DNA from: Haliotis cracherodii
Taxonomy: Eukaryota
Reading direction: 5' to 3'
Length of the DNA stretch: 64,000 bases
NCBI RefSeq assembly: GCF_022045235.1
Contig: NW_027266271.1
Span: forward strand, 15,190,001-15,254,000
In this document: positions 3,131-63,800 of the stretch, piece by piece
How positions within the stretch are numbered: the first letter of the stretch is position 1
Layout: each line of letters starts with the position of its first letter
The notes under the pieces: generated by a model
Database searches by the model: none
Told to the model about the DNA's origin: nothing
Seen by the model: the letters and a program-made list of their open reading frames with translations, nothing else
Position numbers and translations under genes: made by a program

Positions 3131-6100
3131 GTAAAGTGAAGGACTTACAGATTTGATTTCAATGGGACTGGATGCCTTGAAGGGATATACCGATACGTGA
3201 TGGTTGTATATCCTAATGAATACACAATTAAAGAGTTTATTATGATTTTGTCTAGCTGTTAATGAAAACAGTTGTTTTGCACAGGCTGCAAAGTGCTCTG
3301 GAACAGATGAGCAGAAGAAATAGGATTTTAAAAAAAATAAAAAGTGGTTAACCTTTCAAAAACAGTTAACCTCAATCTGAATAATTTAGAGGGTAACTTA
3401 CAAATGATTACAAATGAGTAAGTAAACGAAGTTTAACGTCGCAGCCATGTATAGGACCCATAAGTGGTTGAATTCACAGCGCCAGGGAACGATAGTACAC
3501 CATGGTCGCAAATCGTGACCCTTCTCAATTTATTACAAAGTATATTGGCGATTTAATAGGAGTGATACACCATAAACGACTGTTTATGTGCAAATGTATT
3601 GTCGATTCAAACACTGCTTGGATCTGTTGATGTTGGTAATGCCATAGGCACGGGATATAACAGCTATTAATGAAAGGAAAATATTGGTAATGATATTCAA
3701 CTTTAAATTGATAAAAATATGTCTTTTGCCAGATCTCCGATCATTTAAGTCCCTCTTTGTTTGGGGAGGCCGAGGATGCAGGCGTCGCCCCTCGGTCTGA
3801 CAGTACACAATTCATGTTTGTACTGGGTGGCTCTGGGGCTGGTTCTCCGCCTTCTACCCCCGCGCCCACACCGTGTCCCCAGGATGGAACCATGAGACCG
3901 TCCACCCCGAGACATAAAACCGAAGGAGACACAGCTCACCAAAGTACACAGAGACCTCCAACCTCCGCAACGCCCCCAGGTACCACTCAACACGGTACTG
4001 AAAGTCCCCCAAACTCCGCAGCGTCTCCAGGTACCACTCTACACGGTACTGAAAGTCCTCCAAACTCCGCAGCGTCTCCAGATACCACTCTACACGGTAC
4101 TGAAAGTCCCCCAAACTCCGCAGCGTCTCCAGGTACCACTCTACACGGTACTGAAAGTCCTCCAAACTCCGCAGCGTCTCCAGATACCACTCAACACGGT
4201 ACTGAAAGTCCCCCAAACTCCGCAGCGTCTCCAGATACCACTCAACACGGTACTGAAAGTCCTCCAAACTCCGCAGCGTCTCCAGGTACCACTCTACACG
4301 GTACTGAAAGTCCTCCAAACTCCGCAGCGTCTCCAGATACCACTCAACACGGTACTGAAAGTCCCCCAAACTCCGCAGCGTCTCCAAGTACCACTCTAGG
4401 TACTGAAAGGTCTCTAAAGTCTGCGCATTTTGTCGGTAGAGGTACAGCTCGAGACACGAAAGCCGAAACTTCAATCGCAGAGACCGAGAGGGTTGGGCTT
4501 TCTTATGGTGATGCATCAGCTGGAGAAACACATGACAAAGACAAACTTGAGTGAGTTTTCTCAAACAGAGCCTATGTTTAGCAATATTTTCTGACCATTT
4601 TTTAATCATTGTCTTTAAAATAGACGCATTTGAGATCACAGGAGGAATCATGCCACACTGTTAACTCCTTATAATTTTACAAATAAATAGGACCACCTGA
4701 ATCACCAGCTACTTACCTCAATGCTTGTCATTGTTACAATATTTCTTTCTGTTTGACAGTTTTTGGGACGTATTTCGGACTGTTGACACGGACGTAGTTC
4801 GAAAGGATGCTAACGACTGGATGACCTTTAAGGTCATAAAATGTATAGTTTACATCCTGCTATTCCTGATCCTTCTTGGCGCATGCGTGGCACAGAGAGT
4901 TGGTCTGATGGTCCTACTCTCCAACATTCCAGCAGCTTCCTCCACAGCAAGCACCACCAGGAACTTCGGCAGGAAGGCAAGGAGTGGACTTTCACGTTTT
5001 AAAAATAAAAGTCTTCCGGTTTTGCAATATATAACTAGAGCCCTTGTTTCCGATATTAAAGTTGAAAAAGAAAAAAATATACTTTGTTTTTCACAAGTCA
5101 CAAATATGAACCACTGTGGGTTTCTAGGATTTACACACTGTTTAGAGAGTAGGTAGTAGGACTTTACTCACAGTTCAGAGATTGGGTAAGGAGTACTTTA
5201 CACATTGTTCAGAAAGTGGGTATGTAGTACTTTACTCACTGTTTAGAGAATGGGTAAGTAGGACTTGACACACTAATTAGAGGGTGAATAAGTAGGTCTT
5301 GACACATGTTTCAGAGGGTGGGTAAGTAGGTCTTGACACACCGTTTCGACGATGGGTAAGTAGGCCTTGACACACTGTTTAGAGGGTGGGTAAGTAGGTC
5401 TTGACACACTGTTTAGAGGGTGGGTAAGTAGGTCTTGACACACTGTTTAGAGGGTGGGTAAGTAGGTCTTGACACACTGTTTAGAAGGTAGGTAAGTAGG
5501 TCTTGACACACTGTTCAGAGAATGGATAAGTAGGTCTTGATACACTGTTTAAAGGGGGTGGGTAAGTAGGTCTTGACACACTGTTTAGAGGGTGGGTAAG
5601 TAGGTCTTGACACACTGTTTAGAAGGTGGGTTAGTAGAACTTGACACATGCTTCATTGGGTGGGTAAGTAGGACTTGACACACTGTTTAAGGGTGGGTAA
5701 GTAACTCTTGACACACTGTTCAGAGGGTGGGTAAGTAGGTCTTGACACATGTTTCAGAGGGTGGGTAAGTAGGACTTGACACAAGTTTCAGAGGGTGGGT
5801 AAGTAGGTCTTGACACACTGTTTAGAGGGTGGGTAAGTAGGTCTTGACACACTGTTTTTAGCAACATTCCATCCACAATTATGCGGATTGTGAGGGAGAC
5901 ATTAGAAAAAAGGCGCCACAATGTGGGGTGGCATTTAATTAAGCTAGTTGCCATCCTTTGTGCAGGCGGAACAAATATGTTGCACATATAATTATAGTAA
6001 TGGAAACACGAGCATACTTATGGTTTCAAGATTATTGAGCATGGGCACGACTATGGCAAACCATCAAATTTAACCATACACCTTCATTGTTATTAATGAA

Positions 6101-9100
6101 CATATATTTATTCACCTTCATAATGTCATTCTTTATATCTCCAGGGCTCGCATTTCGATGAATCTATTCCATTTACCAATTTGATTGGCTGCGCTACACA
6201 GTCAAACGAACCAAAGACGTATATACGTCCGTGAACGAACCAATCAGAGTGAGAGTTACAAACCAGCCTCAATGTTGGGTTGGCGATATGAACAGTCCCA
6301 TTGATTGCGATGGAATTTGCCAGACATGTAACATTGAAAAACTGAATGACACCCAAAAGAAAGCCCTCGGAATATTTTTGAGTGAAAGAATGCCTTTTTG
6401 CATTTTTTTCCTTTTCGACGTTTGATTGGTCGGTAATTTATAATGGTAATGAGAACCAAGGGCAGGTAATTAAGGCCCCGAGAACCACTGGATCTAGGGG
6501 ATAGTGTTTGTTTACCGAGCCTTGTATACTACTCAAAATTTGATAAGGATCGTAGATATTTTTCTTAATAAAAAAACAAAATAACTGCATAACTGGCAAT
6601 ATTGTGTTCAAGTGAAATCAAAAACGTCTCCAACACACTTGCACGTGCATTTCATGCCATGGGAAATGCGTTTCACATCACAGTTCATGCTTTTGCTACC
6701 ATTGCACGATTTCCAATCAGGCAACGGTGTCTGATTCATTCTGAAACTTTAAACTCAATTGAGTGTTTACACTACGTTTATCTACGCAATGCCCCCTCAA
6801 CGTGTAAGGCGTCGCCGCACGACAGAACAACTGGGCAGATGTATTGGAATGCTTGATGCTGGCTATTCACAACGTGACGTTGCCAATGCACTAAACGTCA
6901 GCCAGAGCGTTGTAAGCAGGGCCTGGTCCCGACAGCAAAATTTTGGTACAGCAGCACACCGACATGGGGGTGGTCGTCAGAGGTCGACAACCCAACGCCA
7001 AGATCATTTTGTGGCTCTTCAGGCACGACGTCATCCCTTCTGGACAGCAACCAGCCTACGTAACGACCTCCTGAACGCCTCGGGGGTGAATGTGTCCACT
7101 CAGACTATACGGAATCGTCTTCACAATGCAGGTCTCTACTCGAGAAGGGCATGTGTCCGAATCCCCCTGACTGTTCGACACCGGCGGGAGCGATTGGAAT
7201 GGGCTGAAGATCATGTCACTTGGACACGGAACGATTGGGTTCCAGTTCTGTTCACCGATGAGTCCAGGTATTGTTTGGACTTTACAGACAGGAGGCAGCG
7301 GGTGTGGCGACGACAACGTGAACGTTTCCATGATGCCAACATCAGTGAACATGACCGTTATGGTGGTGGTTCCATCATGGTCTGGGGTGGAATCAACAGA
7401 GATGGAAGGACAAATCTTCATGTCCTGGAGAGAGGAACAATGAAGGGGGTGAGGTACCGGTATGAGATCCTCGATGTGTACGTCAGACCCTACGCTGGTG
7501 CTGTTGGCCCTGAGTTCACCCTGATGGATGATAACGCCCGTCCTCATCGCGCCAGGGTGGTTGAGCAGTACCTTGAGCAGGAGACAATTGTCCGCATGGA
7601 TTGGCCAGCGCGCTCGCCGGACTTGAACCCGATTGAGCATGTCTGGGACATGCTGCAGGTTGCCCTTTCACGCCGTAGAGCACAACCCACGACTTTGGCA
7701 AAGCTCAGACATGCCCTCGTGGAAGAGTGGAACAACCTTCCCATTGGGAACATCCGGGTGCTTATTGACAGCATATCTCGACGTTGTCAGGCCGTCATTG
7801 ATGCAAGGGGAGGTCATACTCGATATTGACACTTCATCGACTAAGTGTAATGATGGACTATCCCTCATAACTGTGTAATTCTTTCTCTTGTTTGCTGTTA
7901 ACATTTTTTAATGAAATGCCTTTTGGTGTTTGCAGATTTCAAACATTCCATATTGATACAAGTTCATGCCGTTCATGAATTTTCATTCATAACATGATTA
8001 AACACGTTTCTGAGTCAGAGTCATGTCTTTTGTTATGTTTGTGGTAACTTACACACATATCACCTAGTGATCCTTATCAAATGTTGAGTAGTACCAAGAT
8101 AATCTTACCATAAGTAAAGTTCGTTTTAAGTAACCACTGACAAACGTATTCAACAATAAATTACTCGGAAATTGTCAATGTGTTGACGTCATAATGTCAT
8201 TCCTGCTTGTCGTAAGAGGCGACTAACGGTATCGGGTGGTCAGGCTCGCTGACTTGGTTGATGCATGTCATCGATCCCAATTGCGTGGATCGATGCTCAT
8301 GATATTAATCACTGGATTGTCTGGCCCAGACTCGATTATTTACAGACCGCCGTCAAACAGCTTGAATATTGCTGAGTGCGGCGTAAAGCAACAAACAAAC
8401 CAACCAAACAGCCATCCCTAGTTCACATACTTACATTGATTGGATTTCCTAGCATAGACGTGCGCCATTCTTGAACATCCTTTGTTTTTTCAGGACGGAA
8501 AAAGTATAAAGTCGACCAATATTCAGACAGCACACTACTTCCACCTGACCATAGCAATGTGTATTCCTTACCTACTTACCTCCCTTATAGCGCTCTTCAA
8601 ATGGATGCTGGGAACATTCCCAACTCCAGGCGTCCTAACGTGGATCACGGTAGGAACATAGCCATTACAAGTTGAAAAACAAGTTTGATGATGGTCGTTT
8701 GAAAATGAATATAAATAGTCCTCTGAGATTATCATAACTGTAATCATAAAACGTGAAGGCCAGAGAATAACTAGTCTTGATTATCCACCGATCCATTGGG
8801 TGTAAAAGCGTTCAACGTATATATTTAATACACCTTTTATGGTAATCAATATACAATCCATATCTTCTCAAAGCGTCGAGGAGCACTGAAAATCAGTGTT
8901 GTCAACAGGTGTTCGTGAAGGGGTAACGGGTTAACGAGACTGATTAATGAGTGATTTCGGCAATTCGTTGCAAATTAGGTGTGTCGGAGTCGGTGTGCGA
9001 GACTGTCGGATTAACGGGACTAAACAGCTCTGATTAATTACCGACACACCTAATTCCCATCATTAGTGTCGGATAAAGCTGATTGTCGGATTAACGAGAC

Positions 9101-11370
9101 TTGACTGTATGTCGTAGCATCCTGTAGCACCCGTCACAATTTGCATTAAAAATAGTTACTCATGAACTGTACTGGGGAAACGATTATTCAAGTGTCTGTT
9201 TCATGATTACACTCAGGAAACATTTTATCGTCATATTTACACTTTGCATTTCTTTAGAAAAGTGATACGATATTTACCGTTTGTTGCCTGACGCTGCCAG
9301 TCACTCGATATCCGTGCCAGAGAAAAGATCATTTCAAGTTTCTATATGAGGATTGATTTCAGGATATAGTTATACGTTATTTAGTGCTTGTTGGGTTATA
9401 ATTCAGATCTAACTGTTTTAGGTTCTGTTATCGGAGACCATCCACTCCCTAGGACTGTGTGCCCTTGTCTTCTGGATCCTACCCAAGTATGACGTTGTAT
9501 CTGGAGCACTTCTCCTCAGCGCAACCAACATTCTGCCGTCCCTTCTACTGGTTACCTGTTCCGGAAACGTGTCAGGGGATTCCAAAGTAAAGGCTGCCTT
9601 GAAGAAGAGTTTGGATGTCTTTGCGTTGATCTGTCAAGCTTCAGTGGTCCTGTTGCTCTTCCCCTTCATAGATCCAACACAGCGCCTGGCAAATCCAGAA
9701 GACAAAGCTGTTTTGGTGATCGGGGTTTTGTTCACCTCCATCAAATGCTGGGAGACATTTGTAGATGGTCATATTGGCCTTCTTAATTCCCAGGGTTTGC
9801 CAGACAGCGGCAACTACAACAACCGCTTCATGAACAAAATACTGAAGATTCGCTTTGAACTGCAAGAAGGAAGGAGCAGCGTGTCGATGGTGGCGGGAGT
9901 GTGGAAGGTCATCATGACCTTTGCGGCAGTTTACTTAGTGATGTTTTTGAAGGGGGTTGATCTCAAGAACACTGACAAGGTATTTTTTGTGTTCACGGAA
10001 TTACACGAAGATACCACCATGCAGTCTTCCTTGTTAGCAGTGACTATTGGTGGCTTTGTAGCGTACTATGCAGCGTACACAGCCTGTAAGTTGCAGATGC
10101 AGATAATGTCCTTCGCTGTACCAATCGTCGTTTCCATCCTCGTTACACTGGGGATTTTGGCTGGTGACTGTCTTCACTATGTTACTGGTTTCATCCACAA
10201 CATATTCCTATTCTTAGAAAAGTGTGACGTCTCACCAAATGTGTACTATCTAGGGTTATCATGGTTATTGTCACTGTTGTGGGTCGCTCGACATATTTGG
10301 TTTCCAAGGCAAGGTCGACTGGAAGAGTACGAAAGGTAATGCTATTGTTGTTTTAGAAAGGAAATGTGAGGTTAGGGCTGGCTATGCCGTTAGAGACGAC
10401 TAACTGGTCGGAATTTCAGGCGCGTTGACCTGACTAATTGGTGTTATCCTGTTCCGATGAAGTAGATCGCTGCTCATGCTATCAGTCACTGGTTGTGTGG
10501 CCCAGACAGGCCGCCATAATTCTGTCGATGGTAGCGGCGTTACACATCATACTCTGATTCAGTATGAGTTAACTCCTTGATTAATCTGACACTCCCGGAG
10601 TGCCGTTACATTCCTGTATATCTCTCCTTATACATCAATAACATGTAGCGAGTGTAAATAGTTTCTATATTTCTTTCCAGCTTGTTCATCAACCCATATT
10701 ATTGTGGGATACTGACGTGTGAAAACCTTGTCCTGAATCGTCGTCGTCACAACGAAACTGTCACCTATTCCTGCGATGGACCTGACGATCAGCAAGAGCA
10801 CTTCTTCATAGTCAAGCCCAGAGGCGTAAAGCAGTCTAACTCTTCAACACAAGATGCAACCAGTGCAGATATTCCCTTCATATACGCATGCGCAACTATG
10901 TGGCACGAGACCAAGATAGAAATGACCCAGCTACTGAAATCTTTGTTCAGGTAGTTATAAATATTTAATGAGTGAGTTGGGTTTAATGTCGCTTTGACCA
11001 TTATTTCATATCAGGGTATGTTAGTTTAGTAAGGGTGATAACCCCACAGTTTAAAACACAAGCAGCGGATTCTAGCACGCATGAAGTGAGTGAGTGAATT
11101 GGGTTTAACGCCTTTTTAAACAGTATTCCAGTTATATCACGGCGTGTCAGCATAATGTGGGAGGAAAGCCCGAAGTGATCCAGGTCTCAGATGTTTAACG
11201 AGCACATAATAGGGGCGAACCGGGATTCGAACCCACAATCATGGGTTTCTGGCGTGTCAAGTGACACAACTCTGCACAGCGAATCGCGGCGCCTTAAACG
11301 ACTGGGCCACCCGTGCCCCCTTTGAGTCTTAGAATCGCACGGGCTAAGAACAGACGCCCGACCAAATGAG

Positions 11371-11403
<33 letters not shown>

Positions 11404-13685
11404 AGCACGTATGGAGGATGTTCGTAATTTACGAGAAATTTGGAGAATAACACCTTTCTTCTAATTCACATTTGTACTAAAAAGTACCCCCAAGTGCGTA
11501 TATTGAGTGAGTAAGTGAGTGAGTGAGTGAGTGAGTGTGTTGGGTTTAACGCCGCTTTTAACAGTATTCCAGTCATATCACGGCGTGTCAGCTTAATGTG
11601 GGAGGAAAGCCCGAGGTGATGCAGGTCTCAGACGTTTACCACTTCGGCGAAACCCACGAGCACGGGTATGGTGCTGACAAACCTAGAAACATAATCGGGG
11701 CGAACCGGGATTCCAACCAACAATTATAGGTTTCTGGTGTTGACAACGTTAACTCTGCAGAGAGATATGCGGGGCCTTAGACGACTGTGCCACACGTGCA
11801 CGTATGGAGGATGTTCGTAAACGCGAATTTTGGAGAATAACACCTTCCTTCTAATTCACATTTGTACTAAAGGTAAAAGTACCCCCAAGTGCATGTATTG
11901 AGAACCGGATTTCAGTCTAGGGGGGATGTTGGTCGCTGATACTATTCCACGCTCATTGTATCCCCAGGCTGGACAAAGAACAGGCGTTGAGAGAGCAATG
12001 TGCAGTCCTCCGTAATACAGAAGACGTGAGAGATAGGTTCAACTATCAGGGTAAGTTTCAGCGGTACATAAAAAATACTGACCAAAAAACGATGATGGAA
12101 TTTGGACGCTCTCGATTATATACGATATGAACGCTGAGCGTTCGATTCCAAATTCAGTTCACCGCCATTAAATCTCAAAGGAACACAGCTCTGAATTGAA
12201 AACACAATATGTTTATCTCCATTGCACCATGACATATTTTTACTAGTACGTTAAGCTTGACAGATTTAGCGACGACTAACAGGAAATCCATCGGCTCTTA
12301 TACGGAGAAACCCCGTGAAGATTCGGAGTGAGAATATAGGTACCCTGCAACCTATGCTTGTCGTAATGGTCGATCGGGTGGTCAGGTTCGGTGACGTGGT
12401 TGTTCGTAAGTCATCGTATCCAAATTTGCGTGGTTCGATGCTCAAAATCAATGGATTGTCTAGTTAAGACTTGTTTCTTTACAGACTGCCGTCATATAGC
12501 CGGAATACTGTTGATTGTGGCGTTAAACAGCAACAATAAGAATACGGAGAATAGTTTACCCCATATCCTGGCTGATCATGTGTCATGGTATCTTACAACA
12601 AAGCTAATTGTCACAACCACAAGTGAATTAGTGTCGTGGTGGATTCCATTGCGTGAATTCTGTAATGGTGAAATCACTCGAATTTGTTGATTCCGGAAGT
12701 AGAATTAACTAGCGAAGGGGCTATTTCCGGAATCAACAGATTTGATTCATTTCTCTGAATTAAACTATGTCATGGCTGACATACGTATGATTTTATCTAT
12801 AATTGTGCGTCAGTTGTCCTATTTCAACATTTTTGTTCCAGCGCATATATTTTTTGATGATTCTTTGGAATTAAACGACGATGACAAATGGGAGGCTAAC
12901 GTGTTTGTAAGAACATTGGTCAACGTCATGAGCGACGCGTGCAGGTATGAGTCTTCTGTATGTTGAATCAACAGAATGATGTCTGACAACAAAAAACTAC
13001 CCCTGAACTAGTTTGACCCTTACACAAACAATGTTCGCGTATTGTTTATTATTGTTCATGGTTGCTGTACTCGTGGCGTATTATCATTCACAATTTCGTA
13101 ATTTCTTTTTCATTTCATTTAATAATCTCAGAAAACATGTTGTTTTTTTTGTTTTTGTTTAACGCCGCAACGAACGAACATTTAACCTACCGGGCTACCC
13201 AATACATCGACTCGCTTGCGATTCTAGAATTTAACACGCACTCAGCAATATTCCAGCTATATAACGGAGGTCTGTAAATAATCGAGTCTGGACCAGACAA
13301 TCCAGGGATTGACACCATGAGCATCGATTCACGCAATTGGGATACATTGACATGTTTCAAACAAGTCAGCGATCCTGACCACTCGACCCCGTTAGTCGCC
13401 TTTAACGACAAGCATAGTCTCGCCTGTTTCGGCAAGCATGGGTTGCTGAAGACCTATTCTAACCCGAGTCTTCAACATGTTTGTCAAGCTATGTCCTTGT
13501 TTTAATGTTCACTCAGCAGTTAATGGGTACCCGGGAGGATGTGATATGAATGCAACTGTCAACCTACCAGAGCCTCAAGGGTAGCTTGCCCATGGAGTTG
13601 AGAATGCAAAACGAGTGCACACCGATCCATTAAACAGAGTAGCAATACTACAGTATACGCCAGTTCGTAGTTTAGCGCTATATAG

Positions 13686-13718
<33 letters not shown>

Positions 13719-35300: not shown

Positions 35301-38300
35301 GAAATCTTAGAGTTATCATTTCCAAACTGTAAAAAGTCCCTGTCTTACATAATTAGAGATACGGTATTAGACGATGTCACTTATAACACTCACCAGCACA
35401 AGCAGCACCACTTGTTGGTCTCCCGAACCCAGGATTACAGTCGCACACATAGCTACCGTTTGTGTCGCGACACACCTCTTGAGTTCCGGTACAGACAGAT
35501 GGGGTGGCTAAACACTCGTCGACGTTAGTCTCACAGTTGGTGCCGGTCCAGGCAGAGGTACACGTGCAGGATCCATTGACCGAGTCACAGGATGCTGTGT
35601 TGGGGAACACACACGTGCACTTGCTGGCACAGTTGAACCCATATGTTGGTGACGTGCATTCTGAATGGATATGAGTTGCATGCAGTTAAGTATAAGGTAG
35701 TTAATATGAAACCAATTTATTTTTATATAATTTAATATTGATATCGTTAATTGGGGTTGACGAGTGGGAGGATGTTGTCATGCAGCTATATCACGGCGGC
35801 CTTTAAATGTTTGAATGTTGGTCAGTCCAGTGTTTGACAGCATGTACATCTATTTATGCCTTTTGGACACGCCTCACTCTCACCCTACTCCCTTAAACCT
35901 CTTAGGCAATATTAGGTGGTGAGGCAGTACTCTACCTTTGGATCCCCAAGGGATAGCTGAGATTCCCATGGGAAGGCATGCAAATTGGAAGATCAGAAAC
36001 AATGTACATATTTTGGGCCAAATATTTCTTCCACGACAACACTTGAATTTTGAGAAATAAACAGAATTATGTTTCACAACAAACTGATTTTATTCCAACG
36101 TTTCTGAACAAGTTGGCCTAAAACACTAAATATGCTGAAACACTTTGAAAAATGCATAGTGGATTTGGACTCTTGATAAATAACAAATGATTGGAAGCTT
36201 ATGTCAAGGTATGACAACGCGAATGAGGATTCAAACTCAGACAACATTATTGCTATGTTATTGCCCACAAACCTCACTGTCACATACAAATTTATTGTTT
36301 TCTGTCAGTTCGATGATTTTGTTTTCACTATTCCACTATGCGTTTTAAGGTGTGTTGGTAAACAACTTCAACGTTGGAGTTATGGATTAACATTACAGGT
36401 GAGCTACATTCCTCTTTGTGTCTCACATGGAACTGTACTAAAACAATCCCTAACGATGTTGATTACCCTGCTTAAGACTCACCGACACATGTTGAACTTT
36501 GGGATGACTTCCAGAACCCAGGGTTACAGTCACACACATAGCTGCCGGATGTGTTGCGACACACCTCAGTGGCTGTACAGTTGTGGAGGCTTTCTGAACA
36601 CTCATCCACGTCAGTCGAACAGTTGGTGCCGTTCCATCCTTCCTTGCACGTGCATGATCCATTGATCGAATCACAGGAGTCTGTGTTGGCGAAATCGCAA
36701 GTACAATCTTCTGCACAGTTGATGCCATATGTTGTACTGGTACAAGCTGAAACAAAAGCAGAATAAATACTGGATATGTCGGTACAAGGACATCAGGATC
36801 ACCTGGCGCATTAGGTGACCTCGAACAAGCGTGTTCATGGTCAGCCTAAGGCCTAAAGTCTGTCGTGATATCGCTGGAATATTGATGACTAACCATGTCT
36901 GTAGACGGAATACACTATCTAAGCATTACTTGTACCACTATTTGTACTTACGTATGCAACCGCCTTTGGTCCGTATATATCCTTTATTACAGGTACATGA
37001 ATAGGAACCGTTCCTTTCGCCACACGTGCTGTTGGTGCCGCAGATGGCGGAGTCGTCGGTACATTCTGGTACGTCCTCCGTGCACGTCGTTCCTTTCCAC
37101 CCAGTCCTACATGTACAGCTGCCGTCAGTTGCGTTACAGTTGATGGTGTTGGTGGCGTCGCAGCTGCAGTTCTCTATACAGTTGGCGCCATAGGTGCCGT
37201 CAGGGCATGCTGAGGAGAATACAATTCCAATCATGCACTAACTGTCCTTCTCATAGATATCATTGTTAGGATTCCAGGCCAACAGGCCTACAGAACCCAA
37301 CGCTGGTCGGAATAGCGGACTTTGAAGGGGATTCTGTGGCTTTGCTGATTGCGTGACATTGTACCTACATTACGTGAATTAGTGGTTTGCCAGGTCCAGA
37401 CTCAGATATACAGGCCGTCGTGAAATAACTTGAATATTGCTGACTGCGGCGTTTAACAATACTCATCCACTCTCGTTGACCGAACCGAAACGAGAGTTAC
37501 TCTGACAAAGAGAATATTTACACAAAATACACCATTTGTGAAAAATATAATTTCCAAATCTGAACAAGTGTACGTCTTTCACATACCTTCACAAGTTGCC
37601 ATGTCAGCAGCCAACTGGAAGCCATCACAGTAGGAACAAGTGTACTTCGCTCACATACCTTCACACGTTGCCATGTCAGCAGCCAACTGGAAGCCATCAC
37701 AGCAGGAACAAGTGTACTTCGCTCACATACCTTCACACGTTGCCATGTCAGCAGCCAACTGGAAGCCATCACAGCAGGAACAAGTGTACTTCGCTCACAT
37801 ACCTTCACACGTTGCTATGTCAGCAGCCAACTGGAGGCCTTCACAGCAGGAACAAGTGTTCTTCGCTCACACACCTTCACAAGTTGCCATGTCAGCAGCC
37901 AACTGGAAGCCATCACAGCAGGAACAAGTGTACATCTCTTACATACCTTCACAAGTTGCCATGTCAGCAGCCAACTGGAAGTCATCAGAGCAGGAACAAG
38001 TGTACGTCTTTCACATACCTTCACAAGTTGCCATGTCAGCAGCCAACTGGCAGTCATCAGAGCAGGAACAAGTGTACTTCGCTCACATACCTTCACACGT
38101 TGCCATGTCAGCAGCCAACTGGAAGCCATCACAGCAGGAACAAGTGTACTTCGCTCACATACCTTCACACGTTGCCATGTCAGCAGCCAACTGGAAGTCA
38201 TCAGAGGAAGAGCACGTGTACTTCTCTTACATACCTTCACACGTTGCCATGTCAGCAGCCAACTGGCAGTCATCAGAGCAGGAACAAGTGTACGTCTTTC

Positions 38301-41300
38301 ACATACCTTCACACGTTGCCATGTCAGCAGCCATCTGGCAGTCATCAGAGCAGGAACAAGTGTACGTCTTTCACATACCTCCACACGTTGCCATGTCAGC
38401 AGCCAACTGGAAGCCATCACAGCAGGAACAAGTGTACGTCTTTCACATACCTTCACACGTTGCCATGTCAGCAGCCAACTGGCAGTCATCAGAGCAGGAA
38501 CAAGTGTACATCTCTTACATACCTTCACACGTTGCCATGTCAGCAGCCAACTGGAAGCCATCACAGCAGGAACAAGTGTACTTCGCTCACATACCTTCAC
38601 ACGTTGCCATGTCAGCAGCCAACTGGCAGCCATCACAGCAGGAACAAGTGTACTTCTCTTACATACCTTCACAAGCTGCCATGTCAGCAGCCAGCTGGAA
38701 GTCATCAGAGGAAGAGCAAATGTACTTCGCTCACATACCTTCACAAGTTGCCATGTCAGCAGCCAACTGGAAGCCATCACAGCAGGAACAAGTGTACTCC
38801 TCTTACATACCTTCACAAGTTGCCCTGTCAGGAGCCAACTGGAAGTCATCAGAGGAAGAGCAAAATTAATGTACTTCGCTCACATACCTTCACAAGTTGC
38901 CCTGTCAGGAGCCAACTGGAAGCCATCACAGCAGGAACAAGTGTACTTCTCTTACATACCTTCACAAGTTACCATGTCAGCAGCCAACTGGAAGCCATCA
39001 GAGCAGGAACATGTGTACGTGCCAGCAGGTGAGTTCGCACAGTTCTGCGAACACGTTGTATTCACGGCACATTCGTCAATGTCTGTTGGTAAAAAGAACA
39101 TGTTGTAACGACGATCATCAATTAAGGTATCGAGGCAATGTTTGTCAATGCTTTGATTGTGGCCTTACGTCGCACCTANNNNNNNNNNNNNNNNNNNNNN
39201 NNNNNNNNNNNNNNNNNNNNNNNNNNNNNNNNNNNNNNNNNNNNNNNNNNNNNNNNNNNNNNNNNNNNNNNNNNNNNNNNNNNNNNNNNNNNNNNNNNNN
39301 NNNNNNNNNNNNNNNNNNNNNNNNNNNNNNNNNNNNNNNNTGATATAATAGGTAACGTCTCTTGTCCGAATTCGATGACATTCAAGTCCCCGAGTCTGAC
39401 CCCAGGTCCATTTAGTCGCCAAGCATATTTTAATAATCTCACAATTACACCAATAACACACGAATATTTGTGACCAAGCTTTACAAATGTCTCAACAATT
39501 GGTATTAACGAAATGACACAACATGCCCAAGCCTCTGGGATTAATGACTACAACAGGCGTATCGAATTGCTCTACAAACATATTCCTTTTCAGTTTCGTC
39601 GGTAGCATTCTCAGTGTCATAATTCTGAAAACTGGATTCAAAAGATGAAAGAACATTCAGCAAATACCACAGGCATCTGCATCACACACATTGTACACGT
39701 ACCATCACAGGTTTTGTTGTCGGCGTCTCTTAGCTGGTATCCTGGGTTACAGAAACATATGTCTGTTCCTCCTTCAACACGACAACCACCGTTGGCGGAG
39801 CAGTCTGTTCTGTTGCAAGTCGCAGCTCCAGGTTTCACTGCGTAATAAAGACACGGACCACTTGAGGTGTGTGAATTAAGGCGATATACGTGTGTCCTTA
39901 TGGAGATATAATTTACTTGGAACAGCAAACAATACACTAAAAAGGTCAAGTGCTTTATGAGTCAGAAACGAGAATACTGTTTGACGCCACAAGCGATATT
40001 CCAGCTCTATCTTGGCGTCACGTAAATATTTGAATCGGGAAAACCACTCCTTCATTCTGTGAGCAACGAGGTAAGTACACTGTAGCACCCCAATACCAAT
40101 TGATAATAATATCAAATAAATTTAATTATGAAGCTTGCAGAGACCCCTGCACCGCATATACTTCACATTAGTTTTAAATATATATGCATTAACCGAAAAA
40201 TACGTTCATTGTCGTAACAGGACAGAGATGTGTCCCTCTGCCGTGTCAAGATACGTGGATCGTTTGCTTAAATCCTCGACTCGCCATCATTATAATAATT
40301 GATATGACGGGAGTCACCTTGCTCGTGGGTTTCACAAATATGAAAACTCCATCACATCTGGGATTACACCACATTCTGTTGCAACGCTGTGATCTTATTG
40401 AAAATAGGTTACATCGGCATGACACTGACTCACAAACTGGTTTATAAACTCACATGTGCACTTTCTCCTTTCTTTGGTGAGTTGATATCCATCGTAGCAT
40501 TCACATGCATAGCCACCTTGTGTGTTCCTGCACTTGTGATCACAAGCATGCTTTCCCAGACTGCACTCGTTGATATCTGCCATAGAACACCACAGTATTG
40601 AGGTGAAATGGGGTTAGGAGGCGTTCAGATTATTGCTTAGTTTGTTTTTTAACGCAGCACTCAGCAATAATATATCAGCTGTATGACGACGGTCTGTAAA
40701 TTATCAAGTCTGAACCAGACAATCCAGTGATTAACGCCATGAGCATCGATCCACGCAATTAGGATACGATGACATGCATCAACCAAGTCAGCGAGCCTGG
40801 CCATTTCGATTCCGTTAGTCGCCTCTTACGACAAACACAGTCGCCTTTTACGGTGAGCATGGCTTGCTGAAGACCTATTCTAACCCTTAAGATTATTGTA
40901 CTTATATGTATGTGCGTGTGGCTGCTTGTACTAGTCCGGACTAATGCCGATATTATAGCTCCATCCTACTGAGATACCATACCGCAGGTTAACATGAATA
41001 CCCAACTCAGACACAGTATACTGACTCCGAGCCGAACTGTTCTTGTTTTAGCCCCTTAATTCCGAGCGCCAGGCAGGGTAACAACAAGTACCATCTTTAA
41101 ACGGTATGACGCGGCCGGGGATCGAACCCCGACCTTCCGCTCTCCGGATGGACGCTCTACAGCTGGACCAGAGCTAGATCAGAGCTAGACCACAGCTAGA
41201 CCATGGAGACGGTCCAGACATTCATATTGAGGAGCAAATAATTTTCATAATCAGTTCAGTTGTGGGTATGAATTGTAAGTTAAATTCTTATGGTCATGTG

Positions 41301-57800: not shown

Positions 57801-60800
57801 GACGGTATAAATTCATGTCGTCGAAGGACAGTAAAATAACTACTAGATATATACCCAATTTATATCTAAAACTACTAGGTTACCATAACAAAGATTGCGC
57901 TGCACATAACAAGATAAAAAAAACGGGCTATGGATCACCATCAACCAAACCTAGGCCGCCATACTAGGGACCGTAGGGACTGCTACCTGAACGGTTCCCA
58001 AGAGGATTTACACTATCGCTTCAGTTGCTGACGACGATACGCAATTTAGCCATCAATTATTGAACACAAATAAACTACGTTTAAAACTGTGGTTGGAATA
58101 AAGGTACTTTGATTGATATGGTCTAACATATCCTCTCGGAGTTGTTACGTGGGTACTATATCTATCTCATTTTAACATGCAATGGATGTTTTATGAATGT
58201 TTCCATAATGTTTATAGAGTACAACTTGCTATAAGCCTCCAAACGCGATATGTCGCTTTGCAGAGTTGCATCCCTTAGATGTTAGGATCCGCTAGTAATT
58301 GGTTCGACATGTACTCGTGGGTTTCACCAAAGCAGTATACCCCAGGCTACAATCTATCACACATGACGTCTCCCTCACACAATAAGCTGAATAAACGCGA
58401 CAAAACCAATTTCCATAATCAGAAGACCTCTTTGCCGTAAGTCCATTGTACGAGTCCGACTTTATTGTAAGCATGTGTATTTGAAACACTATTACAGTAA
58501 ACTACGTTTATAACGAACACGCTTATAACAAACTGACGGATATAACGATCTTGCTTTTTTGTCCCGACTATTTGCTGTAGTTATGCTGTATATATGCTTG
58601 TAACGAACTACGGTTATAACGAACTAAAATTAGTGGTCCCTTTGAGTTCGTTATAACCGTAGTTTCCTGTAATTAGTGATGAAAAGGTGTTTGCGAAAAG
58701 GTAAGTGTTTACTGTAAAACCCATCACAAAGGGAACATATGGGACAAGTCAAAATAAGGAATTGCATCATACATAATTTTTGTCCATGATGTGTCAAATT
58801 TGAAAATGTCTTCAACATTTCTAGTATAAAACTTTATGATAGCTTTACTGAGGCCTTGAATGCTGTAACCTTTGTAATCAAACACTTTCTGTGCATGAGT
58901 TGTATGACGCTCTTTGAAAGGCCATTGAAAGACCTGCAATCAAATTCCACCTTAGAGTGAGTGACTGAGTATGGTTTTAAGCCGCGGGTGGCATTTTTCG
59001 ATAAACGTCAAGGCGGGATACACCGTAAATGAGTCTCACACCTGGTACCCATGTGAGGAATCGAACCCCGGGTCTAACTCCTATGAAATAAAATTGAACA
59101 AGAGTCGTATGACGCTCTTTTAAATCTTCGTAGAAAGGGCACGTTCGATTGTTTCTCAAACGTTGGGACATGTTGACAGAAAAATTATGGAGCTGCTGAA
59201 ATATTGCTCCACGAACCCTGTGATATAACAGAAGAGCACTTCAATCATCGTTAAACCCAACTCACATAGATATTTAGTGGTGTTTCGTGCTTCCTCTATC
59301 TGGGTGGTAGTTGCTACTGCCAGGTCCTTGTTCCCAGTCACGGCGTAGTCATATATACACTGTGTCTCGTCCTTCCCGCCACACACACCCTCAGCTTCAG
59401 CGCGTGTGTCAGCCGCTATATCCTCCTCAAACAGTGGGGTGTAGCTGCTGTTTGTAAATGTAGCGATATCCTCATACGGACCGTAATGGAGAACAGATTC
59501 AGTCATATTGGTCAAAGCCCCTGGAAAAGAAAAATAGTACCAGTGCATTGTAGGTCACCGGGTATGTAGTAAAAGCCCCTGGAAACGAAAAAAAATTAGT
59601 ACCAGTGCATTGGAGGTCACCGGGTATGTAGTAAAAGCCCCTGGAAACGAAATTTTTTTAGTACCAGTGCATTGGAGGTCACCTGGTATGTAGTAAAAGC
59701 CCCTGGAAACGAAAGATAGTACCATTGCATTGTAGGTCACCGGGTATGTAGTAAAAGCCCCTGGAAACGAAAAAAATTTAGTACCAATGCATTGTAGGTC
59801 ACCTGGTATGAAGTAAAAGCCCCTGGAAACGAAAAAATAGTACCAGTGCATTGTAGGTCACCTGGTATGAAGTAAAAGCCCCTGGAAACGAAACATAGTG
59901 GTGGTGGTAGTTGCTACTGCCAGGTCCTTGTTCCCAGTCACGGCGTAGTCATATATACACTGTGTCTCGTCCTTCCCGCCACACACACCCTCAGCTTCAG
60001 CGCGTGTGTCAGCCGCTATATCCTCCTCAAACAGTGGGGTGTAGCTGCTGTTTGTAAATGTAGCGATATCCTCATACGGACCGTAATGGAGAACAGATTC
60101 AGTCATATTGGTCAAAGCCCCTGGAAACGAAAAATAGTACCAGTGCATTGTAGGTCACCGGGTATGTAGTAAAAGCCCCTGGAAACGAAAAAAAATTAGT
60201 ACCAGTGCATTGGAGGTCACCTGGTATGTAGTAAAAGCCCCTGGAAACGAAAGATAGTACCATTGCATTGTAGGTCACCGGGTATGTAGTAAAAGCCCCT
60301 GGAAACGAAATTTTTTTAGTACCAGTGCATTGGAGGTCACCTGGTATGTAGTAAAAGCCCCTGGAAACGAAAGATAGTACCATTGCATTGTAGGTCACCG
60401 GGTATGTAGTAAAAGCCCCTGGAAACGAAAAAATTTAAGTACCAATGCATTGTAGGTCACCTGGTATGAAGTAAAAGCCCCTGGAAACGAAAAAATAGTA
60501 CCAGTGCATTGTAGGTCACCTGGTATGAAGTAAAAGCCCCTGGAAACGAAACATAGTACCATTGCATTGTAGGACACCTGGTATGTAGTAAAAGCCCCTG
60601 GAAACGAAAGCATGGGTTGCTGAAGATCTATTCTAACCCGGATCTTCAGGGGTCAAATTATAAAATTGACCGAATTTGACATTGATCACCCCCGAACATA
60701 TACGTGGAGCCCGTCAAAAAACTATTTACAAACAACAATTACTCCGGATTCATATTGCTGAGTGCGGCGTTAAACAACAAACAAACAAGGTTTCACTAAG

Positions 60801-63800
60801 ACGGCTGGATACAATAACTGTCATAATAAATTAAGTGTATCATGGAACGTACATGATTGGCCGAATTGGTAGAGAACTTCATCTGTGGAGGTAGCAAGGT
60901 AGGGGGAGCCTGTGGATGATACGAAATCATCAGTGTCGTCTCCGTTATAATTTCCAAGAAGACCTTTAGTTAGACCTCTGTATGTTTCCGGTAAAACGGC
61001 TGACTGGGACAGTGTTCCGGAGATGAGGCTCACGGTCACCACAACATCTGGGGAAACAATTGGGAAACAATGGAGAAACAATGGAGAAACAATAGGGAAA
61101 CAATGGAGAAACAATGGGGAAACACTGGAGAAACAATGGGGAAACAATGGAGAGACTATGGCGAAACAATGGAGAAACAATGGGGAAACAATGGAGAAAC
61201 AATGGGGAAACGATGAAGATCGAACAAAAAGTTAAAAATGGCGGGCAAATATGTGGTACTTTAATGATTTAACGATGGAGCAAATTCAAAACGTCAACGC
61301 GAGAGATGAATCAATCTCGATTATCTTGTTTGTTTGTTTGTTTAACGCCGCACCCCGCAATATCACAGCTATAAGACGGCGGTCTGTATATAATCGAGTC
61401 TGAACCACCTATCTATGAGCATCGATCTATGCAATTGGGATACGATGACAAACATCAACCAAGTCAGCGGGCCTGATCACCCGATCCCGTCAGTCGCCTT
61501 TTACGGCAATCATGGACTGCTGAAAAACTATTCCACCCCGGATCTTCACGTGGTTTGAAATAATACGCTTCTCGCTCCCAGTTGACCGATAATGGGCGAT
61601 ATATACATCGGACATGATCCGACATATGCCTAATTTTCACTCACCATATACAATTTGACAACTCAATTGGAACTAAAAACAAGATATGTATAGATTTTCT
61701 AAGCCTCCTCTTTAGATATTTTTGACAAACGACTGGTACCCAAATATCCAAATCCAAATCTATCGCCCGTGCAATCACGTTTTGCCGGCTGTGATGCCAC
61801 AGTGATTAGCAAGTTATTGTCTCCCCTCCCTAACGTCTTAGACGAGAACGGAAGCTAAGGGGCGGTGCTTATCAGTCGGGACTGGATTGGTCTAGTGTGG
61901 GTAACAGCAAAAAAAAAATAATGGTACTTCCATTTCGTTGACTATATGTTGATTCCGATTTGATTTTTTAAATTAATGTATATACTTATGTGGTTAATCA
62001 ATCAGCCAGTCAATCAATCAAACAACATGTAACCTTACCAATTTGTGGGAAAGCAATTTGAATGTCTGTGTCATTTTCTTTTAATACACTGAGGAAAGGT
62101 GATTGTGTCTGAAAGTCTGGTTCCTGGAACTCCAGGGTCTTGTCAACACCATCTATGTAGATGACCATTTCTGAAACGATATGAATTAAAAAAAACGTCA
62201 ACGCCAGAGAATTATCACTCTCGAATATCGACCGAAACAGATTCCAGAGGGCGTAAGTAGCGAAATAGTGTTGAAAATTATGAGCCTGGATTACTGAAAA
62301 TCAGCGATGACACACAATTTTCGTTAACAAGTAATGCGTCATATTCAATAAATTTCTCTGAATAGGTATAAGGTCACAAAAATAAAATGATACATACTTG
62401 TCCTATTTGTGTTCAGTCCGACATGAACCCGTCCTGTGCCCAGGGTTTCACTCTTCTGCTCAACTGCGAAGGCGGAGAACACAGTGGCCTTGACCTTCTC
62501 CCCTGTTTGCGACTTTGCCTGGGCAGTTCGGCAGTGTAGCTTGAAGGTGAAGGTCTTGTTTTCCAGTTCCATCAACGTGTACTCCCCCAATCCGTTGAAG
62601 GTGTATACCTTGCCGTCCAGTGTCATGAAGTGGGGGTCGCCCGAATTCATGACTGGATATATAATACGTATTCTTTAAACGTGTAACATGCACGTACAGT
62701 TTATAATTGTTTTCACTTATTTATTATGGTCTATAACAGTGTTTGCTTGTGGTTTAACGCCGCACTCAGCAATACTCCGACTTTATGACGGCGGTCTGTA
62801 AATAATCGAGTCTGGACCAGACAATCAGATTGACATCATGAGCATTGATCCACGCAATTGAAATATGATGACATGCATCAAGAAAGTCAGCGAGCCTGAC
62901 CACCCGATCCCGTTAGTCGCCTCTTACGACAAGCATAGTCGCCTTAAACGGCAAGCATGGGTTTGCTGAACACTTATTCTACCCCGGATCTTCACGGGTC
63001 TTTTTAGTTTCAAATAAAAACAAACAAAAAAGAAGTGAGCAAAGCTCACATACCCCCGTTATCCCCGTTGGTCAACAACAAATAGTAAATAGTTTGTTAA
63101 TTAATGAAATATACCTGTTGCATGGTGAAAAAGTTATGGGCCGTACAAAAGCTCGGACGGAAGGACGGACGGACAGACGGAACGCTATATACCCCCGATC
63201 TACTTCGTAAACGGGGGTATAATTAAATACAATAGTTACCTACGATATATTAACATTGCAATTTTAATTCAGATAATAACTGCATGAATCAGGCATAACG
63301 AATAATAACCTAATAATTTAGATATTAAACATAACTGATTATTCGTTTTAACATGTATACAGACACACTATATGATAAACAGTTGAAGACCTTGTTGTTT
63401 ATGCCTATGTCACAGTAATTGGACGTTTTTTATGACACTGGAAAAATGGACAACGACTATTAAAAACTATGAAAAATGCAAGAGTCACCCAAAACACACG
63501 CCAGAACGCAACCAGTGGTTTGGCACATGCACGTGCAATACTCGAAAAGTAGAAGTCAACATATTCAATGTGGGTAGAATATGGTTAATTCCAGATGCAA
63601 CTGAGATGCACTCTTGAAAGTTGAAAATTTTAACGTTTTTGAAAACTGTTATCGCTTATAATCTGTGTGACCACCCAAAAAGTACGGTAAAGGGGGTTTC
63701 ACTGTTCAAATGGGCGTTAATCTCAACTCACTCACTCACAACAAACTTACATCGGATAGCCCTGGGTATTTCCCATGAACAGCTTGACATAGGTCTGAGA

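What the first reader, a model, noticed from the sequence alone, without database searches (positions are those of the whole stretch)
37565..39082. About 20 tandem copies of an EGF exon's 3' half plus its 5' splice site
Seen: the 72-bp unit is ~57 nt of exon end (TCSC(C/S)[13 protein letters not shown]) plus gtatgt(g/a)a. The intron therefore opens with ~19 extra GAAG|GTATGT donors, essentially identical to the real one. In the exon frame each unit has a stop two codons after the donor (GGT ATG TGA/TAA). Inference: only the first donor gives full-length protein; any distal donor gives an NMD target or a TM-less secreted ectodomain, which could act as a built-in isoform or abundance switch.
Basis: partly seen in the sequence, partly recalled or inferred. 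Interest (0 to 1): 0.7.

Follow-up and report, generated by a model that had tools for sequence, protein, structure and literature searches.

The report
Splice-donor "mirage" shared by three paralogs
The end of one exon of a mucin-like membrane-protein gene, with its splice signal, is repeated 19 extra times into the next intron, and two sister genes carry the same repeat, but the assembled transcripts splice at the first signal, so it is likely a harmless repeat of a kind already known from lancelets, chickens and humans.

Summary
The array is real: 20 donors at 72-bp spacing, each unit 58 nt of exon end plus 14 nt of intron. A DNA run from another study holds it. The host gene is MUC4-like: NIDO, VWD with GDPH, about 20 EGF exons, a transmembrane exon. 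Paralogs B and C carry the same array (4 and 14 donors); D and E lack it, and E has its own arrays at other exons. All 5 informative spliced contigs (4 runs, 3 studies) use the first donor; contigs cannot exclude rare distal use. The copies show no coding constraint and no significant donor conservation, and an early stop is common behind this family's donors. Distal donors would all give one truncated protein, not a ladder. This is an exon-boundary minisatellite of a known kind (lancelet "mirage", chicken exon stuttering, human F7), most likely neutral. One addition: the array lies at the end of a two-exon block homogenised among A, B and C (synonymous differences 4-5% against 43-49%), so it likely spread by gene conversion. 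The scan has noted such arrays before, in this genome and in at least 36 genomes. The switch reading is not supported.

The parts
37562..39018 (-). 72-bp minisatellite, 20.2 copies; unit = last 58 nt of EGF exon E14 + first 14 nt of the intron; the first unit is the real exon end
38960..39082 (-). EGF exon E14 (123 nt, phase 1-1, calcium-binding EGF)
   Evidence: Pfam; both ends seen in spliced contigs
38954..38962 (-). authentic donor AAG|GTATGT (intron starts at 38959), the donor used in 5 of 5 informative spliced contigs
38952..38954 (-). in-frame TAA that every distal-donor product would retain; 64 nt before the second donor
37581..38890 (-). 19 extra donors (first intron bases 38887 to 37586); unit 3 carries a 5-nt insertion
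37210..37561 (-). unique remainder of the intron; no similarity above shuffles to the same part of paralogs B and C
36952..37209 (-). next exon E15 (258 nt, double EGF)
39703..39837 (-). preceding exon E13 (135 nt), joined to E14 in RNA contigs; 93-98% identical among paralogs A, B, C
38960..39848 (-). block homogenised among paralogs A, B, C (E13, part of the intron, E14); inferred gene-conversion tract that ends at or in the array
33478..33616 (-). transmembrane exon of the host gene, downstream of the array
   Evidence: PF21314; RNA contigs cover it
59514..60609 (-). second, acceptor-side boundary array of the same gene: 16 TTTCCAG|GGGCTTT sites in two blocks, with a partial exon copy at 60120 and the full exon at 59520
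   Evidence: exon is PF23263
62372..62674 (-). VWD exon with the GDPH motif

Best explanation
The array is a real exon-boundary minisatellite, likely a selectively near-neutral by-product of tandem-repeat growth, and the assembled transcripts splice at its first donor. Shown: a 72-bp seed covering the last 58 nt of exon E14 and 14 nt of intron is amplified to 20, 4 and 14 donors in paralogs A, B and C, and E13-E14 are nearly identical among these otherwise diverged genes. Inferred: the seed duplicated once; slippage or unequal exchange set the copy number in each gene; a gene-conversion tract covering E13-E14 and ending at the array carried it between paralogs. Inferred from F7: the spliceosome takes the first donor after the acceptor (5'-to-3' scanning, exon definition), so the other donors are removed with the intron. 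Rare distal products would all stop at 38952 and would likely be cleared by NMD.
For: RNA: X12 record 5 (gene-A type, 4 differences in 258 nt of E15) has 153 nt before E15 = 123 (E14) + 30 (E13); X12 record 4 has 220 = 38+123+59; X13 has 40 letters between 37169 and 38960; X14 has 50 between 37159 and 38960; X16 leaves E14 straight into a paralog-B-type E15. None has a 72-nt insert. No coding constraint: distinct non-synonymous/synonymous changes 16/6, 9/4, 23/11 (random expectation 0.8 non-synonymous); all three Cys kept in 15 of 19, 0 of 3, 1 of 13 copies. Units cluster by gene (8 label changes against 14.7 shuffled). D and E lack the array; E has boundary arrays at E8 (57 bp x30), E9 (63 bp x11) and E11 (116 bp x2.8). 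Conversion: synonymous differences at E13+E14 are 3/73 (A-B) and 4/77 (A-C), against 147/298 and 127/298 at the 11 upstream exons compared (P=1e-14, 2e-11). Precedents: PMC1557585, PMC3087553, PMC12954441.
Against: All RNA data are assembled contigs, which drop rare variants, and none is from an NMD block. Only 1 of the 5 informative contigs is gene-A type. Array-internal pieces occur in X13 (8 of 15 contigs fit two places; the 4 shown have depth 3-4.7, against 524 for the spliced contig) and X16 (1 of 5; depth 4.6), while the unique intron 39115-39674 has no cover in X13, X16 or X17. GT is invariant in 38 of 38 units, and the donor 9-mer varies less than the rest (2 of 9 against 37 of 57 columns, P=0.026; 3 of 9, P=0.14, with the degenerate 15th unit of C). 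In human 6-16 and CBS the nearest pseudo-sites are used (PMC1557585, introduction). The array persists in three paralogs and probably in a second species (one X16 contig under depth 5).
Confidence: 0.8

Rival explanations
1. Leaky but unselected: the second and third donors are used in a small share of transcripts, as in human 6-16 and CBS; the products carry the retained stop and are degraded, with little effect on fitness.
For: The extra donors score the same as the real one on a matrix from 35 donors of these genes (7.5 and 7.5 for A01 and A02; leave-one-out median 8.7). Low-depth array pieces are present in X13 and X16. Precedents are listed in the introduction of PMC1557585.
Against: None of the 22 RNA contigs laid shows a loose end from an inner unit into E15; the partly laid records of X13 (4), X16 (2) and X17 (1) are all accounted for at exon ends. 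The spliced X13 contig runs unbroken across the junction. Pooled pre-mRNA or DNA from 38 units explains the pieces equally well.
Confidence: 0.13
2. Selected switch: distal donors are used in a regulated way, to lower mRNA by NMD or to make a secreted ectodomain, and copy number (20, 4, 14) tunes each paralog.
For: The geometry permits it (stop retained, transmembrane exon downstream). GT is kept in 38 of 38 units. A reference title in PMC5355169 names putative secreted MUC4 splice forms (title only).
Against: 5 of 5 spliced contigs use donor 1. All distal donors give the same protein, so 19 copies add nothing over one. D and E lack the array. The independent donor array in E has no stop until about its fourth extra unit. 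Early stops are common (7 of 35 within 3 codons, 24 of 35 within 20). The gene has a GDPH motif, which in MUC4 is the described route to a secreted form. Two given columns are invariant by chance with P=0.12.
Confidence: 0.05
3. Assembly artefact beside the N run.
For: An N run lies about 97 bp upstream of the exon; no long read was available.
Against: The units differ from one another (0-18 differences). DNA run X5 holds the array at high summed depth. Paralogs B and C hold diverged versions.
Confidence: 0.02

Closest known systems
Amphioxus 'mirages' (Adh3, globins BflGb6 and BflGb9); PMC3087553, passages of the abstract, section 16 and supplement legends read; supplements not opened
   Same: Minisatellite-like tandem copies of an exon-intron boundary in an invertebrate; donor-side and acceptor-side forms; units of 10-160 bp; variable copy number; concerted evolution within clusters; regular splicing reported as unaffected.
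   Different: Here one array is shared by three paralogs inside a homogenised block; the passages read do not describe that. Somatic instability, reported for Adh3, was not tested here.
Human F7 IVS7 37-bp VNTR, with 6-16 intron 2, CBS IVS13, lamin B2 and PDGF intron 4; PMC1557585, part 1 of 6 (abstract, synopsis, introduction) and 8 passages read
   Same: The first monomer spans the exon-intron boundary; identical donors follow; only the most upstream donor is used in F7, lamin B2 and PDGF. CBS has 15-20 and PDGF 16-18 monomers, a similar number.
   Different: The unit here is mostly exon (58 of 72 nt; F7 has 4 of 37). In F7 a downstream site takes over when the first is mutated; here such a takeover would keep a stop. 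The scanning mechanism was shown in mammalian cells and is only inferred here.
Chicken 'exon stuttering'; PMC12954441, abstract, part 1 of 2 of section 7 and 8 passages read
   Same: A lateral part of an exon with its donor or acceptor is copied through the adjacent intron; 236 introns in 115 genes; the coding exon stays intact.
   Different: In chicken it is concentrated on dot chromosomes (190 of 236 introns) and less ordered; the passages read give no test of splicing.
MUC4-type membrane mucins (host gene); search listing, passages of PMC5355169
   Same: NIDO, VWD with GDPH, C8-3_MUC4, EGF modules and a transmembrane segment.
   Different: About 20 EGF exons; no Pfam AMOP hit on two candidate exons; no long Pro/Thr/Ser-rich frame found upstream; paralog B has a weak SEA hit.

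Membership tests
Exon-boundary minisatellite (mirage / F7 type / exon stuttering) | Head-to-tail array whose terminal unit spans a real exon-intron boundary | tested here: met
   boundary 38960/38959 seen in spliced contigs
Exon-boundary minisatellite (mirage / F7 type / exon stuttering) | Splice signal repeated in the intronic copies | tested here: met
   GT in 38 of 38 units of A, B, C; 33 read AAG|GTATGT
Exon-boundary minisatellite (mirage / F7 type / exon stuttering) | Exon-proximal site used in mature mRNA | tested here: met
   5 of 5 informative spliced contigs, 4 runs, 3 studies; contigs only, rare use not excluded
Exon-boundary minisatellite (mirage / F7 type / exon stuttering) | Concerted turnover of units within an array | tested here: met
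   Nearest other unit lies only in the same gene for 16 of 19 (A), 10 of 13 (C), 1 of 3 (B); label clustered on the tree in 0 of 200 shuffles as low; near-copies make clustering likely
Exon-boundary minisatellite (mirage / F7 type / exon stuttering) | Copy-number variation between alleles or cells | tested here: inconclusive
   Differs between paralogs (20, 4, 14); one X5 contig lacks the 5-nt insertion; allele lengths need long reads
Regulated unproductive-splicing (NMD) or soluble-isoform switch | Alternative junction present in RNA | tested here: not met
   0 of 5 informative contigs; weak test, contigs drop rare forms
Regulated unproductive-splicing (NMD) or soluble-isoform switch | Alternative product has a premature stop or loses the membrane anchor | tested here: met
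   TAA 38954-38952; transmembrane exon downstream
Regulated unproductive-splicing (NMD) or soluble-isoform switch | Alternative site under selective constraint | tested here: inconclusive
   P=0.026 for 38 units, 0.14 with the degenerate unit, 0.71 for A alone; absent from D and E
Regulated unproductive-splicing (NMD) or soluble-isoform switch | Product rises under NMD block or changes with condition | not testable with these tools
   No raw reads or treated samples were listed
MUC4-type membrane mucin (host gene) | NIDO, VWD with GDPH, EGF modules, transmembrane segment | tested here: met
   PF06119, PF00094, PF23263, PF07645, PF21314; GDPH
MUC4-type membrane mucin (host gene) | AMOP domain | tested here: inconclusive
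   No Pfam hit on the two exons between NIDO and VWD, tested singly
MUC4-type membrane mucin (host gene) | Long Pro/Thr/Ser tandem-repeat region | tested here: not met
   One 54-aa frame above 42% P/T/S in the 36 kb upstream of the window end; so the gene is called MUC4-like, not MUC4

The most novel reading that the evidence does not exclude
The array was copied between three mucin-like paralogs by gene conversion and works as a copy-number dial: the more donors, the larger the share of transcripts that leak to a distal donor and end as NMD targets or as an unanchored ectodomain, so that alleles and paralogs differ in the ratio of membrane-bound to lost or secreted product.
Probability: 0.05. 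Interest if true: 0.65.

Novelty: new member of a known kind. Interest (0 to 1): 0.2.

Why it matters
As found it matters little: the arrangement is described in lancelets, chicken and humans, and this scan has noted many cases. Two modest uses remain. Three paralogs with the same exon and 20, 4 and 14 donors, plus two paralogs with none, form a natural series for asking whether the number of identical donors changes leakage in an invertebrate. The sharp block of identity at E13-E14 shows a boundary array moving between old paralogs, which I did not see in the passages read (no dedicated search was made). If the dial reading were true, it would be a repeat-length control of membrane versus lost or secreted mucin.

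Tried and rejected
Coding role for the copies: rejected, changes are mostly non-synonymous and Cys are lost. Protein ladder from 19 donors: rejected, all keep the first stop. Stop as a designed feature: rejected, 7 of 35 other donors have one within 3 codons (of 57 donors called, I dropped the 3 array exons and 19 rows outside the single-EGF, 105-135 nt filter, most of them miscalled double-EGF exons). Array as a source of variation for the working exon: not supported, only 6 of 23 pairwise differences among the real exons of A, B, C fall in the repeated half. Enrichment of arrays at splice sites: 6 of 18 against 2.36 expected (P=0.02), but three are the focal array with one origin; without them 3 of 15 against about 1.7 (my subtraction), so no enrichment is shown; that call also miscalled or missed a few donors away from arrays. 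Assigning the RNA array pieces to one paralog: ambiguous. No run on record as RNA was listed as a holder; the runs used are guessed RNA, but their contigs skip introns at the predicted ends. The homologue search with the C8-3 exon found nothing at E<=0.001 among 33 candidates. The Atlas gave no result. The organism was not tested; 'abalone' comes from unchecked scan notes. A search for Haliotis, minisatellite, intron, exon duplication listed 8 papers, none on this locus by title or abstract start.
Full report
Observation. The minus strand of 36500-40200 holds a 123-nt phase-1 exon, 39082-38960, coding a calcium-binding EGF module. TRF finds a 72-bp array at 37562-39018, 20.2 copies. Cut at the donors, it gives 20 units of 58 exon-like and 14 intron bases; 17 of the 19 extra donors read AAG|GTATGT like the real one, and one spacing is 77. 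The first in-frame stop, TAA at 38954-38952, lies 64 nt before the second donor. Every distal donor retains this stop, so all would give the same truncated protein.

Reality of the array. DNA run X5, from a different study than the best holders, lays 51 contigs on 37515-39900, 28 at 99% or more; summed depth reaches 462 in array bins against about 30 for single-copy contigs. A search of the own genome finds the exon with an array in two more places: paralog B with 4 donors and paralog C with 14 plus a degenerate one. The N run near the exon cannot be called a gap. Copy number was not checked by long reads.

Host gene. Gene A runs on the minus strand: NIDO, VWD with GDPH, C8-3_MUC4, about 20 EGF exons, a transmembrane exon at 33616-33478. 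It is MUC4-like; AMOP and a PTS region were not found. It belongs to a cluster of five on contig C8. The organism was not tested; unchecked notes on this genome call it abalone.

RNA. No run on record as RNA was listed, but five guessed-RNA runs give contigs that join exons at the predicted ends. Five contigs cross the E14-E15 junction with enough sequence to place the donor. X12 record 5 is gene-A type and has 153 nt before E15, which is 123 of E14 plus 30 of E13. X12 record 4 has 220 = 38+123+59. X13 has exactly 40 unlaid letters between 37169 and 38960, and these are the start of paralog C's E15. X14 has 50 between 37159 and 38960. X16 passes from E14 into a paralog-B-type E15. All five use donor 1 (4 runs, 3 studies, organisms A and C). 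The X17 contig ends 4 letters past the exon and was not counted. Against this: X13 and X16 hold short array-internal pieces at depth 3-5, none with a loose end into E15, while the unique intron upstream has no cover. They may be pre-mRNA or DNA pooled over 38 units, or rare extended exons. Contigs drop rare forms, so low-level use stays open.

Selection tests. The copies are not kept as coding sequence: distinct non-synonymous/synonymous changes are 16/6, 9/4 and 23/11, and Cys are lost in 4 of 19, 3 of 3 and 12 of 13 copies. GT is invariant in 38 of 38 units and the donor 9-mer has 2 of 9 variable columns against 37 of 57 (P=0.026), but with C's degenerate unit P=0.14, for A alone 0.71, and the units are not independent. 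An in-frame stop follows within 3 codons at 7 of 35 other single-EGF donors and within 20 codons at 24 of 35.

Family context. Paralogs D and E have the orthologous exon without an array. E has its own boundary arrays: 57 bp x30 at the E8 donor, open in frame for about three extra units, 63 bp x11 at the E9 acceptor, 116 bp x2.8 at the E11 donor, and 25 bp x39 starting at the E6 donor. Gene A has a second, acceptor-side array at 59514-60609. B and C also share two arrays that span no splice site, so persistence across paralogs does not need a donor. Six of 18 arrays span a splice site against 2.36 expected; without the focal three the excess is small (3 of 15 against about 1.7).

Gene conversion. 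A differs from B and C by 24-41% at the 11 upstream EGF exons compared, but by 2-7% at E13 and E14, 21% at E15 and 28-29% at E16. Synonymous differences fall from 147/298 and 127/298 to 3/73 and 4/77. Protein constraint does not explain a synonymous drop of this size. Part of the E13-E14 intron is shared, and the intron tails behind the array are unrelated. I infer a conversion tract over E13-E14 that ends at or in the array and carried it between paralogs. Whether the array promoted the exchange is untested; another high-identity block (A 34500-35665 with B, 93%) has no donor array.

Mechanism. Shown: anatomy, sharing, first-donor use in contigs, lack of coding constraint, local homogenisation. 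Inferred: one origin, turnover by slippage or unequal exchange, first-donor choice by 5'-to-3' scanning or exon definition as in F7 (PMC1557585), and NMD of rare distal products (junction rule recalled from vertebrate work, untested in this animal).

Comparison. PMC3087553 describes 'mirages' in lancelets, tandem copies of exon-intron boundaries that do not disturb regular splicing. PMC1557585 lists F7, lamin B2 and PDGF (first donor only) and 6-16 and CBS (nearest pseudo-sites also used). PMC12954441 reports 236 chicken introns with exon stuttering. I had found the first two before opening the scan's notes; these list 118 findings with the same words in at least 36 genomes and several arrays of this kind in this genome.

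Verdict. Observation confirmed; the switch is not supported; new member of a known kind; interest 0.2.

Noticed in passing
window 59514-60609 (-): Acceptor-side boundary array: 16 TTTCCAG|GGGCTTT sites in two blocks, with a partial copy of the C8-3_MUC4 exon opening at 60120 and the full exon at 59520. Which acceptor is used was not tested.
   Followed up: partly
window 34500-35592 (-): 434-bp unit x2.5 at 99% identity: three whole in-frame 267-nt double-EGF exons; paralog B has a 93% identical block (G000:C8 about 15333410-15334781).
   Followed up: partly
window 61049-61219 (-): 11-bp pyrimidine-rich unit x15.5 that ends exactly at the acceptor of a VWD exon.
   Followed up: no
G000:C8:15562517-15564254 (paralog E, L041-L042): Independent donor array, 57 bp x30 (48 nt exon end + donor). 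The unit is 19 codons and the first three or so extra units are stop-free, so the nearest distal donors would give in-frame extensions; a better candidate for real alternative use than the array in hand.
   Followed up: partly
G000:C8:15364600-15365470 (paralog C, L022): Internal re-duplication of E12-E13 without the array exon, preceded by a 199-bp x2.3 repeat of intron end plus the first part of E12; an X13 contig joins an E13-type exon to an exon start that fits the one following there.
   Followed up: partly
G000:C8:15322526-15323691 and 15376659-15377176; 15326633-15326987 and 15372827-15373284: Paralogs B and C share a 50-bp and a 33/36-bp intronic minisatellite, each beside an exon of raised B-C identity (E2 block 87%; E8 with 2 of 36 synonymous differences): more likely conversion patches next to repeats.
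   Followed up: partly
window 33616-34242 (-) against L019: Paralogs B and C have SEA-like exons between the EGF exons and the tail (weak PF01390 hit in B); no match to them was found in gene A's 3' region.
   Followed up: no
run X16 contig at window 38963: The expressed exon in organism C ends GAG instead of AAG, the same variant as units A09 and C14; may be exchange between copies and the working exon, or an independent transition.
   Followed up: no
window 4700-18888 (+): Chitin synthase gene (PF23000, PF03142) with a very long open frame at 16597-18888, a 34-bp x21 intronic array containing GGTAAGT at 5133-5857, and a Tc1/mariner-type transposase frame at 6753-7826.
   Followed up: no
G000:C8:13050679-13399346 and C43:67019: A second, more distant group of VWD-exon matches (41-47% identity), about 2 Mb away and on a small contig.
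   Followed up: no
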